DNA from: the human T2T-CHM13v2.0 reference genome, Homo sapiens
NCBI RefSeq assembly: GCF_009914755.1
Contig: NC_060942.1
DNA: 64,000 nt
Direction: 5' to 3' (one strand)
The notes beneath the pieces were generated by a model. It did not search any database. It was not told where the DNA came from and worked only from the letters and a program-made list of their open reading frames with translations. Position numbers and translations under genes: made by a program. This document shows positions 54,301 through 62,040 of the stretch, piece after piece; position 1 is the first letter of the stretch, and every line of letters begins with the position of its first letter.

Positions 54301-54655
54301 TCATTTTCAGGATTGAAGCTTGTAGCCTTCACTCTGTGAATAAGCTCTGGGAAATGGCTTATTACAAATTTTCTCAAAGAATTTTGCATAGAATGCTAAT
54401 CTCTCAAAACAGTCTGTTAAAAAAAAAGTCTATGGGAAATAACTTTGAGAAATGCGGGGATTTGCACAGAATTTTTGTATGTGAAATACAGAAAATTGAG
54501 AAGTTCAATGTGTTTAAGCTGCCTTTTCAAACTTATTTGACCCCCAGGGGAATATATGGAAATTATTGCCTAAGTAATACCTTTGTAAAATCTTGCCTCA
54601 GAATCTATTAGACTTGGTACTAGAATTTGTTTTCTGATAAAGCTAAATATTTGTA

Positions 54656-55563
54656 GGGAGGAGGAGCCAAGATGGCCGAATAGGAACAGCTCCCGTGTAC
54701 AGCTCCCAGCGTGAGCGACGCAGAAGACGGGTGATTTCTGCATTTCCATCTGAGGTACCGGGTTCATCTCACTAGGGAGTGCCAGACAGTGGGCGCAGGC
54801 CAGTGTGTGTGCGCACCATGCGCGAGCCGAAGCAGGGCGAGGCATTGCCTCACCTGGGAAGCGCAAGGGGTCAGGGAGTTCCCTTTCCGAGTCAAAGAAA
54901 GGGGTGACGGATGCACCTGGAAAATCGGGTCACTCCCACCCGAATATTGCGCTTTTCAGACCGGCTTAAGAAACGGCGCACCACGAGACTATATCCCACA
55001 CCTGGCTCAGAGGGTCCTACGCCCACGGAATCTTGCTGATTGCTAGCACAGCAGTCTGAGATCAAACTGCAAGGCGGCAACGAGGCTGGGGGAGGGGCGC
55101 CCGCCATTGCCCAGGCTTGCTTAGGTAAACAAAGCAGCCAGGAAGCTCGAACTGGGTGGAGCCCACCACAGCTCAAGGAGGCCTGCCTGCCTCTGTAGGC
55201 TCCACCTCTGGGGGCAGGGCACAGACAAACAAAAAGACAGCAGTAACCTCTGCAGACTTAAGTGTCCCTGTCTGACAGCTTTGAAGAGAGCAGTGGTTCT
55301 CCCAGCACGCAGCTGGAGATCTGAGAACGGGCAGACTGCCTCCTCAAGTGGGTCCCTGACCCCTGACCCCCGAGCAGCCTAACTGGGAGGCACCCCCCAG
55401 CAGGGGCACACTGACACCTCACACGGCAGGGTATTCCAACAGACCTGCAGCTGAGGGTCCTGTCTGTTAGAAGGAAAACTAACAACCAGAAAGGACATCT
55501 ACACCGAAAACCCATCTGTACATCACCATCATCAAAGACCAAAAGTAGATAAAAACCACAAAG
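54656..55563 (+). promoter_or_regulatory. L1 5'UTR internal sense promoter and antisense promoter (CpG-rich)
   Basis: YY1 site CAAGATGGCCG 54668-54678; many retained CpGs; AACAAA SOX-type sites. Confidence 0.85.
54892..55107 (-). CDS. ORF0: L1 ORF0 (71 aa, antisense), intact
   Basis: MAGAPPPASLPPCSLISDCCASNQQDSVGVGPSEPGVGYSLVVRRFLSRSEKRNIRVGVTRFSRCIRHPFL within track ORF 54892..55176. Confidence 0.85.
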   Translation of the reverse strand: MAGAPPPASLPPCSLISDCCASNQQDSVGVGPSEPGVGYSLVVRRFLSRSEKRNIRVGVTRFSRCIRHPFL

Positions 55564-56580
55564 ATGGGGAAAAAACAGAACAGATAAACTGGAAACTCTA
55601 AAACGCAGAGCGCCTCTCCTCCTCCAAAGGAACGCAGTTCCTCACCAGCAACAGAACAAAGCTGGATGGAGAATGATTTTGACGAGCTGAGAGAAGAAGG
55701 CTTCAGACGATCAAATTACTCTGAGCTACGGGAGGACATTCAAACCAAAGGCAAAGAAGTTGAAAACTTTGAAAAAAATTTAGAAGAATGTATAACTAGA
55801 ATAACCAATACAGAGAAGTGCTTAAAGGAGCTGATGGAGCTGAAAACCAAGGCTCGAGAACTACGTGAAGAATGCAGAAGCCTCAGGAGCTGATGCGATC
55901 AACTGGAAGAAAGGGTATCAGCAATGGAAGATGAAATGAATGAAATGAAGCGAGAAGGGAAGTTTAGAGAAAAAAGAATAAAAAGAAATGAGCAAAGCCT
56001 CCAAGAAATATGGGACTATGTGAAAAGACCAAATCTACGTCTGATTGGTGTACCTGAAAGTGATGTGGAGAATGGAACCAAGTTGGAAAACACCCTGCAG
56101 GATATTATCCAGGAGAACTTCCCCAATCTAGCAAGGCAGGCCAACGTTCAGATTCAGGAAATACAGAGAACGCCACAAAGATACTCCTCGAGAAGAGCAA
56201 CTCCAAGACACATAATTGTCAGATTCACCAAAGTTGAAATGAAGGAAAAAATGTTAAGGGCAGCCAGAGAGAAAGGTCGGGTTACCCTCAAAGGAAAGCC
56301 CATCAGACTAACAGCGGATCTCTCGGCAGAAACTCTACAAGCCAGAAGAGAGTGGGGGCCAATATTCAACATTCTTAAAGAAAAGAATTTTCAACCCAGA
56401 ATTTCATATCCAGCCAAACTAAGCTTCATAAGTGAAGGAGAAATAAAATCCTTTACAGACAAGCAAATGCTGAGAGATTTTGTCACCACCAGGCCTGCCC
56501 TAAAAGAGCTCCTGAAGGAAGCACTAAACATGGAAAGGAACAACCGGTACCAGCCGCTGCAAAATCATGCCAAAATGTAA
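55564..56580 (+). pseudogene. ORF1: L1 ORF1p (RNA-binding chaperone), disrupted by two nonsense codons
   Basis: 1017-nt frame ATGGGGAAAAAACAG...NHAKM; TAA at 55585-55587 (K8*) and TGA at 55891-55893 (R110*, CpG transition). Confidence 0.95.
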
Positions 56581-56643
56581 AGACCATCGAGACTAGGAAG
56601 AAACTGCATCAACTAATGAGCAAAATCACCAGCTAACATCATA

Positions 56644-59600: not shown

Positions 59601-60470
59601 GACATAGGCGTGGGCAAGGACTTCATGTCCAAAATACCAAAAGCAATGGCAACAAAAGCCAAAATTGACAAATGGGATCTAATTAAACTCAAGAGCTTCT
59701 GCACAGCAAAAGAAACTACCATCAGAGTGAACAGGCAACCTACAACATGGGAGAAAATTTTCACAACCTACTTATCTGACAAAGGGCTAATATCCAGAAT
59801 CTACAATGAACTCAAACAAATTTACAAGAAAAAAACAAAGAACCCCATCAAAAAGTGGGCGAAGGACATGAACAGACACTTCTCAAAAGAAGACATTTAT
59901 GCAGCCAAAAAACACATGGAGAAATGCTCATCATCACTGGCCATCAGAGAAATGCAAATCAAAACCACTATGAGATATCATCTCACACCAGTTCGAATGG
60001 CAATCATTAAAAAGTCAGGAAACAACAGGTGCTGGAGAGGATGTGGAGAAATAGGAACACTTTTACACTGTTGGTGGGACTGTAAACTAGTTCAACCATT
60101 GTGGAAGTCAGTGTGGCGATTCCTCAGGGATCTAGAACTAGAAATACCATTTGACCCAGCCATCCCGTTACTGGGTATATACCCAAAGGACTATAAATCA
60201 TGCTGCTATAAAGACACATGCACACGTATGTTTATTGCGGCACTATTCACAATAGCAAAGACTTGGAACCCACCCAAATGTCCAACAATGATAGACTGGA
60301 TTAAGAAAATGTGGCACATATACACCATGGAATACTATGCAGCCATAAAAAATGATGAGTTCATGTCCTTTGTAGGGACATGGATGAAATTGGAAACCAT
60401 CATTCTCAGTAAACTATCGCAAGAACAAAAAACCAAACACCGCATATTCTCACTCATAGGTGGGAATTGA
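56644..60470 (+). pseudogene. ORF2: L1 ORF2p (APE endonuclease / reverse transcriptase), disrupted
   Basis: EN motifs QETH, GDFN, IDH, SDH; RT FADD; C-terminal CCHC. 1-bp deletion near 57403 and TAA at 58848-58850 (Q736*); length 3827 nt = 3828-1. Confidence 0.95.
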
Positions 60471-60738
60471 ACAATGAGATCACATGGACACAGGAAGGGG
60501 AATATCACACTCTGGGGACTGTGGTGGGGTTGGGGGAGTGGGGAGGGATAGCATTGGGAGATATACCTAATGCTAGATGACACGTTAGTGGGTGCAGCGC
60601 ACCAGCATGGCACATGTATACATATGTAACTAACATGCACAATGTGCACATGTACCCTAAAACTTAGAGTATAATAAAAAAAAAAAAATTAAAAAAAAAA
60701 AGAAAAGAAAATTAAAAAGTAAAAAAAAAAAAAAAAAA

Positions 60739-61134
60739 TTAAACCCCAGAAAGTGATGACCATGTTAATTTGCATAACTGAAGTAATCATATCACTATGT
60801 ATATCAAAGCATCATGTTGTATACCTTAAGTACACACAATAAAAAATTAAAATGAAAAGTAAAAAAAAAAAAAAAAAGATTCATTGCCACAGTTTGCATA
60901 GAAAAAACACTCTTTTAGAAGACAAGTTAGTTTTCCTAAGTAAGCAGTATGAATATGAATTTAGAAGCAGCCAAGTTTTAAAGTAAAATCTTTTTATTTG
61001 ATATTGATACTTGTAATCATTATTTTTTATTTGAAAAATACTACCAACTACTCAGCTCTGTGAAAGCTTACTATGTTGCCAGATTTGCTTCAGATCTTTA
61101 AAAGTAATAAAATATTACAAAAAAAAAAAAAAAA
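60739..61134 (+). other. L1 3'-transduced sequence: two segments, each with AATAAA and a poly(A) tail
   Basis: Lies between the L1 tail and the 3' TSD; AATAAA 60838-60843 then A-tract 60861-60877; AATAAA 61106-61111 then A-tract 61119-61134. Confidence 0.9.
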
Positions 61135-62040
61135 GCTAAATATTTGTAAACGGTAAAACCATCTGCATTCAATTGTTAACACCACCATGGCAACTATATC
61201 TTCAGGTTCTCTCCAACAGGACAGCCAAATCAATGTGAAATGGGAAGGTGGGTGTGGAGGAAGGTGTGCAGTCAACCTTCTGAACTCCAGACAGAAGGGA
61301 TTAGAGCCAGGGCCTGGCTGGGGTACTGAGCAGGAGTCAAAAATGTATTCCCTTCTCTTTCCTACTCTTCAGGTCCCATGCAGGAGTGTGTCTCTAAAAA
61401 GAAGAGTCAGAACCATCGGGCCTTTCTGCTTCCTTCCATCTGGCCTACCTTCCTGACGCTGCTATCTTCTTGCCCTGCTTTATTTATTCAAAAAGTAAAC
61501 ACCTGCCATATTCTAGACAATGTGTGTCACTTAGAATACAAAAGCAAATTAAGACAAGATCTGTTCAGTCAAGAAAAATGATTAAAATCTATAACTAAAC
61601 CCTAGTCCACGCTTTCTAGGGTCCTCTCAACTTCCAGGAAATAAAATACCTTTTTAGGAACGTTAATGAACAACATTTCTTGCCTCTGCTTCTGTTCCTG
61701 GCCCTACTAGCTATTATATATCAGAAACTCTAATTTTTTCCTTTTAAATTATTCATTCCTCAAAAAAAAAAGCATTTGGAAATGGTTTCTTTTGAGATGT
61801 GAGCATAAACCCATTGAATTAGGGACTCAGATTAAAAGCATACTAAACATCATCTTTATAATTTCAGGCAATCTAAAGGTGCCTGAGTGAATTGGTCAAG
61901 GATGCTGAATTTGTTTATTAATTCATTAGTGCATTTATTTATTAAAAAGAGACTTATGAAGTCCCACTTTGTGTAAGCATGGGTTCCCTGTGGTCTCATA
62001 AAGATAACTTCACTATTACCCCTTAAAAGAAGAGGCTTAC

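What the first reader, a model, noticed from the sequence alone, without database searches (positions are those of the whole stretch)
54639..61148. Full-length pre-Ta L1HS carrying an apparent serial (multi-generation) 3' transduction
Seen: the perfect 17-bp TSD AAAGCTAAATATTTGTA (54639-54655) reappears only at 61132-61148, about 470 bp past the L1 end. Between them lie the L1's own compound A-tail (to ~60738), segment 1 (60739-60860, AATAAA at 60838, then pure A17) and segment 2 (60878-61118, AATAAA at 61106, then pure A16). Established: L1 read-through of its weak poly(A) signal carries flanking DNA to new sites. Inference: each segment plus tail records the flank of one ancestral source element, giving a grandparent-parent-this-copy pedigree. 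GAAAAGAAAATTAAAAAGT (60702-60720) may be a third mini-transduction. Segment 1 resembles an old L1M 3' end, so an ancestor may have borrowed an older L1's poly(A) signal.
Basis: partly seen in the sequence, partly recalled or inferred. Interest (0 to 1): 0.8.

Follow-up and report, generated by a model that had tools for sequence, protein, structure and literature searches.

The report
L1 carrying flanks of lost ancestors
This is a dead, full-length human L1 jumping gene whose tail still carries pieces of chromosome 2 and chromosome 4 picked up by its grandparent and parent copies, which is a clear but already familiar kind of event.

Summary
A 6,017-bp L1 (54656-60672) lies between perfect 17-bp target-site duplications. 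Its 3'UTR carries ACG, the pre-Ta mark. ORF1 and ORF2 are both broken.

Behind the L1 come three parts:
- a short A-rich tag
- 122 nt that match chr2:84,550,200-84,550,321 with 1 mismatch, next best hit 84%
- 241 nt that match chr4:157,550,235-157,550,475 with 1 mismatch, no other hit

Each part ends shortly after a poly(A) signal and has its own A-run. At both native loci the sequence is continuous, with no A-run and no L1 upstream. Each segment starts at a TT|AAA endonuclease-type site.

So the serial 3' transduction reading is supported: a chr2 copy gave a chr4 copy, which gave this chr18 copy. Neither ancestor is present in this assembly.

The "third mini-transduction" is a lineage tag. 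Exactly 9 L1s in the genome carry it, each with its own duplications. One of them, at chr4:133.32 Mb, shares the tag-to-chr2 junction. That is independent evidence for the chr2 ancestor.

Nested L1 and SVA transductions are already in print (PMC6425141, PMC12350158). This is a good example of a known kind, of modest interest.

The parts
54639..54655 (+). 5' target-site duplication, 17 bp. The target reads ...TGAT|AAAG...
   Evidence: exact, only 2 copies in the window, 0.02 expected.
54656..60672 (+). Full-length L1 body, 6,017 bp, pre-Ta type. ACG sits at the diagnostic 3'UTR triplet, with G at the second diagnostic site.
   Evidence: collinear at 98.4-98.8% with three other full-length family members. 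ACG / G. The ACG = pre-Ta rule comes from passages of PMC12350158 and PMC7026601.
55564..56580 (+). ORF1, broken by in-frame stops at 55585-55587 and 55891-55893.
56644..60470 (+). ORF2, broken. There is a frame change after 57402, where one base is missing relative to three full-length relatives. There is an in-frame stop at 58848-58850.
60673..60720 (+). L1 AATAAA followed by the lineage tag: A13-TT-A11-G-AAAA-GAAAATTAAAAAGT. It holds ATTAAA hexamers at 60688 and 60711. The G at 60702 is private to this copy.
   Evidence: the same tag is in 9 L1s genome-wide, control 0.
60721..60738 (+). A18, the tail the chr2-resident ancestor received at its own insertion. The last 5 A could equally be chr2 flank.
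60739..60860 (+). Segment 1, 122 nt, copied from chr2:84,550,200-84,550,321. It is the terminal part of an ancient L1 3' end. AATAAA at 60838 and ATTAAA at 60846. One mismatch, at 60761.
60861..60877 (+). A17, the tail the chr4-resident parent received. The first A could be chr2 and the last 3 could be chr4.
60878..61118 (+). Segment 2, 241 nt, copied from chr4:157,550,235-157,550,475. AATAAA at 61106. One mismatch, at 60902.
61119..61131 (+). Poly(A) tail of this insertion. It is part of the 16-A run 61119-61134.
61132..61148 (+). 3' target-site duplication, 17 bp.

Best explanation
This is one L1 insertion made by ordinary target-primed reverse transcription. Its RNA template already carried a record of earlier generations.

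Inferred order of events:
1. A pre-Ta L1 acquired a short A-rich 3' tag (A~13-TT-A~15-GAAAATTAAAAAGT). Descendants inherited the tag. One explanation is that its ATTAAA hexamers place cleavage behind it; this is inference.
2. One tagged copy inserted on chr2 at ...GCATT|AAAAATTAAACCCC..., about 120 nt upstream of the AATAAA of an ancient L1 fragment. A transcript read through to that signal and so captured 122 nt of chr2.
3. That RNA inserted on chr4 at ...TGCTT|AAAGATTC.... A transcript of the chr4 copy read through 241 nt to a native AATAAA.
4. That RNA inserted at chr18 and made the 17-bp duplication.

The chr18 copy has since been disabled by two stops in ORF1, and by a frameshift and a stop in ORF2.

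Shown directly:
- the structure of the element
- the mapping of the two segments to chr2 and chr4
- the empty source sites
- the shared tag and the shared junction

Inferred: that full-length L1s once sat at the chr2 and chr4 sites, and have been lost or are absent from this haploid genome.
For: - Everything lies inside one pair of perfect 17-bp duplications.
- Segment 2 has only one other place in the genome, chr4, with 1 mismatch in 241 (2 of 2 candidates scored).
- Segment 1 matches chr2 with 1 mismatch in 122. The next best of the 40 hits scored (516 candidates) is 84%.
- At both native loci the sequence runs on without any A-run.
- Both segments start exactly at TT|AAA in the native DNA. 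This pentamer starts at only 0.3-0.6% of positions in the window and the source loci.
- Both segments end 12-22 nt after the start of an AATAAA.
- Lineage context: exactly 9 L1s genome-wide carry the tag after the L1 end, control 0. All 9 have their own duplications.
- 4 of the 9 carry further sequence plus a further A-run inside their duplications. One is a 139-nt piece that maps 99% to chrX:87,112,977-87,113,115, again an L1-free site.
- The motif 'tag end - A-run - AATTAAACCCC' occurs only in this element and in the chr4:133.32 Mb member, control 0. Two independent insertions therefore share the same junction to chr2.
- The L1 bodies agree with this. These two members share T at 60531, which 0 of 8 outgroups and 0 of the 4 other family members have. 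They lack three derived states shared by the chr5, chr8 and chr11 members.
Against: - No L1 is present at the chr2, chr4 or chrX source sites in this assembly. The ancestors are inferred, not seen.
- No other copy of the full segment 1 or segment 2 exists in the genome.
- The shared body variant at 60531 is a CpG transition and could be recurrent.
- The chr4:133.32 Mb relative lacks the TT and the A-run that follows it within the tag, and has 8 C where chr2 has 4. Its descent from the chr2 copy therefore needs two extra small changes.
- No genomic source of the tag could be named. The 5 non-L1 matches of the 24-mer are no more than the 6 given by the control pattern.
Confidence: 0.9

Rival explanations
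1. One retrotransposition event with template switching. Reverse transcriptase started on a polyadenylated chr4 transcript, jumped to a polyadenylated chr2 transcript, then jumped to an L1 RNA. This would give a chimeric retrocopy with no chr2 or chr4 L1 ancestors.
For: - Each segment ends at a poly(A) signal and carries an A-run, as any polyadenylated RNA would.
- The source sites hold no L1 in this genome.
Against: - Both segments begin exactly at TT|AAA endonuclease-type sites in native DNA. A switch point has no reason to fall there.
- A second, independent insertion (chr4:133.32 Mb) has the same tag-to-chr2 junction.
- Two other family members show the same layout with other inserts, one of them traced to a chrX flank.
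Confidence: 0.03
2. A plain L1 insertion, followed by two later and separate insertions of short orphan transductions or retrocopies into its A-tail. Their own duplications would be hidden in the A-runs.
For: - A-rich tails are good endonuclease targets (established knowledge, not tested here).
- The A-runs would hide any extra duplications.
Against: - It needs two independent events in the same few bases and the same orientation.
- Each event would have to be truncated exactly at the start of a transduced flank.
- It does not explain the shared junction in the chr4:133.32 Mb element.
- It still needs L1s at the chr2 and chr4 sites as sources.
Confidence: 0.03
3. The chr2 and chr4 stretches are copies of the chr18 sequence, or the structure is an assembly artefact.
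For: None from the calls made.
Against: - The chr2 and chr4 copies have no A-runs and continue into unique flanks on both sides.
- The chr2 stretch is the end of an ancient repeat of which hundreds of diverged copies exist.
- The chr18 structure sits inside exact duplications.
Confidence: 0.01

Closest known systems
L1 3' transduction families with progenitor, donor and offspring chains (Salvador-Palomeque et al. 2019, PMC6425141; passages read)
   Same: Family members are recognised by a shared 3' transduced tag. A later generation adds a second transduction from its own locus. Internal variants agree with the tag-based pedigree.
   Different: That family is described there as recently active; its progenitor and donor were found in genomes and tested mobile. 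Here the elements are pre-Ta, the copy in the window is ORF-dead, and all three inferred source sites (chr2, chr4, chrX) are empty in this assembly.
Catalogued polymorphic L1 insertions with two or three transduced blocks (Schloissnig et al. 2025, PMC12350158, supplementary file 2, sheet '18')
   Same: Same layout: L1 - poly(A) - transduced block - poly(A) - transduced block - poly(A). 11 L1 rows of this kind lie in the stored part of the table.
   Different: Those are non-reference, polymorphic insertions. This one is in the assembly, and no row starts at chr18:41,966,xxx. The stored file is cut, so rows for most of chr2, and probably all of chr4 and chrX, could not be seen.
Serial SVA transductions (Ebert et al., bioRxiv 10.1101/2020.12.16.423102; passages read)
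   Same: [quoted passage not shown]
   Different: A different, non-autonomous element, with both 5' and 3' transductions.
Template-switch chimeric retrocopies such as U6-L1 chimeras (recalled, no call)
   Same: Several RNA-derived pieces sit head to tail inside one pair of duplications.
   Different: Here each junction is an A-run followed by an endonuclease-type site in the native locus, and one junction recurs in an independent insertion.

Membership tests
L1 3' transduction | The L1 with its own A-run, then non-L1 sequence, then a further A-run, all lie inside one pair of target-site duplications. | tested here: met
L1 3' transduction | The extra sequence maps to a single other locus, where it is continuous with its flanks and has no A-run. 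| tested here: met
   for chr4. for chr2.
L1 3' transduction | A poly(A) signal lies shortly before the 3' end of the transduced block. | tested here: met
   the AATAAA hexamers start 22 nt and 12 nt before the ends of the two segments.
L1 3' transduction | A full-length source L1 lies directly upstream of the block at its native locus, in the same orientation. | tested here: inconclusive
   Absent at chr2 and chr4 in this one haploid assembly. Indirect support comes from TT|AAA at both starts and from a second insertion with the same chr2 junction. Other human genomes are not held here.
Serial (multi-generation) transduction | The blocks are separated by A-runs and come from different loci, with the inner block the older one. 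| tested here: met
   The lineage tag shared by 9 elements adds an older layer.
L1HS pre-Ta subfamily | ACG at the diagnostic 3'UTR triplet (positions 5,929-5,931). | tested here: met
   Rule taken from PMC12350158 and PMC7026601.
L1HS pre-Ta subfamily | Human-specific, with an empty site in apes. | not testable with these tools
   No ape genome is held.
Retrotransposition-competent L1 | Intact ORF1 and ORF2. | tested here: not met
   two stops in ORF1; one frame change and one stop in ORF2.
Template-switch chimeric retrocopy | Junctions are unrelated to endonuclease sites and unique to one event. | tested here: not met

The most novel reading that the evidence does not exclude
The A-rich tag marks a pre-Ta sub-lineage that I did not find described in print. 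Its ATTAAA-bearing tag is passed on from copy to copy. The lineage read through into flanking DNA unusually often: 4 of its 9 members in this genome carry further captured sequence. Its 'ghost' source copies at chr2:84.55 Mb, chr4:157.55 Mb and chrX:87.11 Mb (CHM13) may still segregate in some human populations as non-reference source L1s.
Probability: 0.15. Interest if true: 0.45.

Novelty: new member of a known kind. Interest (0 to 1): 0.3.

Why it matters
It is a fully worked, sequence-level example of reading an L1 pedigree from nested 3' tags in a complete genome. It covers at least three generations, and the L1 body variants agree with the tags.

It names three exact sites where ancestral source L1s must once have sat and are now missing. 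These can be genotyped in pangenomes and in archaic genomes.

It does not change what is known about L1 biology. Serial transductions and transduction families are already described.

Tried and rejected
- Source of the tag. The 24-mer gave 14 genome matches at up to 1 mismatch, against 6 for the reversed control. Nine are L1 tails. The 5 others lie in unrelated sequence and are no more than chance, so no source locus can be named.
- Source of the 28-nt extra block in the chr14 member. No other match at up to 1 mismatch.
- Nearest relatives by body sequence. The best 40 of 6,183 candidates for 58700-60672 were generic young L1s at 99%, not the tagged members. Overall identity does not recover the family; only shared variants and tags do.
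- Print search. The duplication and tag strings occur in no main text of the library.
- Source coordinates in print. A search of supplementary file 2 of PMC12350158 (CHM13 coordinates) gave nothing for the chr2, chr4 and chrX sites or for chr18:41,966,xxx. The file is cut when stored: insertion rows reach only about chr2:11 Mb. The miss therefore means little for chr2, chr4 and chrX. For chr18 it means only that no row starts there.
- Papers not held. Szak et al. 2003 and Macfarlane et al. 2013 are the papers most likely to list reference L1 transduction families. Neither is held, so prior description of this family cannot be excluded.
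Full report
**Observation**

The 17-mer AAAGCTAAATATTTGTA sits at 54639-54655 and at 61132-61148. It occurs nowhere else in the window at up to 2 mismatches. Shuffles gave a mean of 0.02 matches, and 0 of 100 shuffles reached 2.

Between the two copies lies an L1 that starts at 54656. It ends with its AATAAA at 60673.

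It is collinear over about 6.08 kb with three other elements, at 98.4-98.8% identity. Each of those starts at the same bases next to its own duplication. The element is therefore full-length, 6,017 bp.

The 3'UTR has ACG and G at the two diagnostic places. ACG at positions 5,929-5,931 is the stated criterion for pre-Ta in PMC12350158 and PMC7026601 (passages read).

The element is not intact:
- ORF1 starts at 55564 and has in-frame stops at 55585-55587 and 55891-55893.
- ORF2 starts at 56644 and changes frame after 57402, where one base is missing relative to three relatives.
- ORF2 also has a stop at 58848-58850.

**The 3' end**

After the L1 the order is as follows:

| Coordinates | Content |
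|---|---|
| 60676-60688 | A13 |
| 60689-60690 | TT |
| 60691-60701 | A11 |
| 60702-60720 | GAAAAGAAAATTAAAAAGT |
| 60721-60738 | A18 |
| 60739-60860 | segment 1, with AATAAA at 60838 and ATTAAA at 60846 |
| 60861-60877 | A17 |
| 60878-61118 | segment 2, with AATAAA at 61106 |
| 61119-61134 | A16, whose last three A belong to the duplication |

**Where the segments come from**

The window's own genome (T2T-CHM13) could be searched.

Segment 2 has exactly one other place, chr4:157,550,235-157,550,475, on the + strand. There is one mismatch, at 60902.

Segment 1 matches chr2:84,550,200-84,550,321 over all 122 nt, with one mismatch at 60761. The next best of the 40 scored hits (516 candidates) is 84%.

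At both loci the sequence runs on into unique DNA on both sides. There is no A-run, and no L1 upstream.

The two segments thus come from different chromosomes, and the internal A17 is not genomic at either source.

**Segment 1 is an ancient L1 end**

Ten look-alike loci of segment 1 (75-88% identity) were examined. In 6 of them, degenerate L1 ORF2 C-terminal coding sequence lies a few hundred bases upstream on the same strand. One locus has such a hit on the wrong side, and three have none.

The chr2 locus itself has none. It is a short, 5'-truncated end fragment.

The family name was not tested.

**Evidence that L1s really sat at the source sites**

No L1 is there now, so this step is inferred.

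First, both segments begin exactly at TT|AAA in native DNA. The sites are GCATT|AAAAATTAAACC on chr2 and TGCTT|AAAGATTC on chr4. That is the form of an L1 endonuclease target, and of the start of a 3' duplication. TTAAA starts at only 0.3-0.6% of positions in the window and the source loci.

Second, the element belongs to a family. The motif 'L1 end - A-run - ... - AGAAAATTAAAAAG' occurs 9 times in the genome and 0 times for the reversed control. The same nine are the L1-tail matches among the 14 hits.

All nine have different duplications, so they are independent insertions that inherited the tag:

| Member (CHM13) | Structure |
|---|---|
| chr18, this window | full-length |
| chr5:13.36 Mb | full-length |
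| chr8:105.87 Mb | full-length |
| chr11:90.32 Mb | full-length |
| chr4:133.32 Mb | 5'-inverted |
| chr21:27.03 Mb | 5'-inverted |
| chr12:19.10 Mb | 5'-truncated |
| chr14:45.26 Mb | 5'-truncated |
| chr18:70.91 Mb | 5'-truncated |

A tail can only be inherited if a transcript reads through it. The tag is therefore itself the trace of an older read-through. Its genomic source could not be named.

Four of the nine carry further sequence plus a further A-run inside their duplications:
- this element
- chr5, with 139 nt that map 99% to chrX:87,112,977-87,113,115, again an L1-free site that begins at AG|AAAAA
- chr14, with 28 nt whose source was not found
- chr4:133.32 Mb

That last member has, after the tag and an A22, the string TTAAACCCC followed by four more C and an A15. 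The motif 'AAAAAGT - A-run - AATTAAACCCC' occurs only in it and in the window's element, with control 0. Two independent insertions thus join the tag to the same chr2 nucleotide. This is what a tagged L1 resident at that chr2 site predicts. One transcript would have ended early, just after the ATTAAA that the chr2 flank provides. Another would have read on to the old L1's AATAAA.

**Body sequence**

The 3.05-kb 3' region was compared with 8 other young L1s.
- The window's element and the chr4:133.32 Mb member share T at 60531. None of the 8 outgroups and none of the 4 other family members has it.
- The chr5, chr8 and chr11 members share C at 59303 and G at 60324. The chr18:70.91 Mb member also has the first of these. 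No outgroup has either.
- At 56838 the chr5, chr8 and chr11 members have A. The window, the chr4:133.32 Mb member and 6 of 7 outgroups have C.

The split agrees with the tags.

Caveats:
- Site 60531 is a CpG transition.
- A 3-bp deletion shared by chr5 and chr8 but not chr11 conflicts with four sites that join chr8 and chr11.
- The chr4:133.32 Mb member lacks the TT and the A-run that follows it within the tag, and has 8 C where chr2 has 4.

**Age**

Copy and source differ at 2 of 363 transduced bases. The element has 17 private differences in 3,052 bases against the outgroup majority. With recalled neutral rates this means a few million years, with very wide limits. It fits the pre-Ta age of about 2 Myr given in the Ebert et al. 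preprint.

**Rivals**

Three rivals were considered:
- Template switching in a single event.
- Later nested insertion of orphan pieces into the tail.
- Copying from chr18 into chr2 and chr4, or an assembly artefact.

The first two fail to explain the endonuclease-type starts and the recurrent chr2 junction. The third is contradicted. Together they get well under 10%.

**Comparison with what is known**

- L1 transduction families with progenitor, donor and offspring chains are described in PMC6425141.
- The stored part of a supplementary table of PMC12350158 lists 11 polymorphic L1 insertions with two or three transduced blocks.

The kind is therefore known. I found no printed mention of this element or its tag. 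However, the two papers most likely to hold it are not in the library, and supplements were only partly visible.

**Verdict**

The pedigree can be extended by a lineage tag shared by nine elements and by a cousin that shares the chr2 junction.

It is a clean example, not a surprise. Interest 0.3.

Noticed in passing
L034:7112-7250 (CHM13 chr5:13,359,411-13,359,549) and L044:1501-1639 (chrX:87,112,977-87,113,115): A full-length family member on chr5 carries the tag, an A24, a 139-nt block that matches chrX at 99%, and an A20, all inside its own 16-bp duplication. The chrX site holds no L1 in this assembly. This is a second serial transduction in the same lineage.
   Followed up: partly
L038 (CHM13 chr14:45.26 Mb, minus strand), block after the tag: A 5'-truncated member has a 28-nt block plus A17 after the tag. 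The block has no other match in the genome at up to 1 mismatch, so its source is missing or diverged.
   Followed up: partly
L033 (CHM13 chr4:133.32 Mb, minus strand): A 5'-inverted member of twin-priming type: 951 bp inverted, joined to 3.1 kb direct. Its micro-transduction has 8 C where the chr2 source has 4. Its tag lacks the TT and the A-run that follows it. The cause is unknown; slippage or a different allele of the source are possible.
   Followed up: partly
window 59838-59840, as aligned to L034, L035 and L036: A 3-bp deletion is shared by the chr5 and chr8 members but not the chr11 member. Four other sites join chr8 with chr11. The conflict points to a recurrent deletion in an A-rich spot, or to exchange between L1 copies.
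   Followed up: no
L051 / L059 (CHM13 chr7:98.85 Mb): An untagged pre-Ta L1, used here as an outgroup, has A at the site that aligns to window 56838. It shares this with the chr5, chr8 and chr11 clade only. It may be a relative that predates the tag, or a parallel change.
   Followed up: no
window 60749-60860: The ancient L1 3' end inside segment 1 is not masked as repeat in the hub's list, where masking stops at 60748. Yet it has hundreds of diverged copies in the genome.
   Followed up: yes
window 24039-25040: Two RefSeq enhancer features are listed by the hub. They lie about 30 kb from the L1 and were not examined.
   Followed up: no
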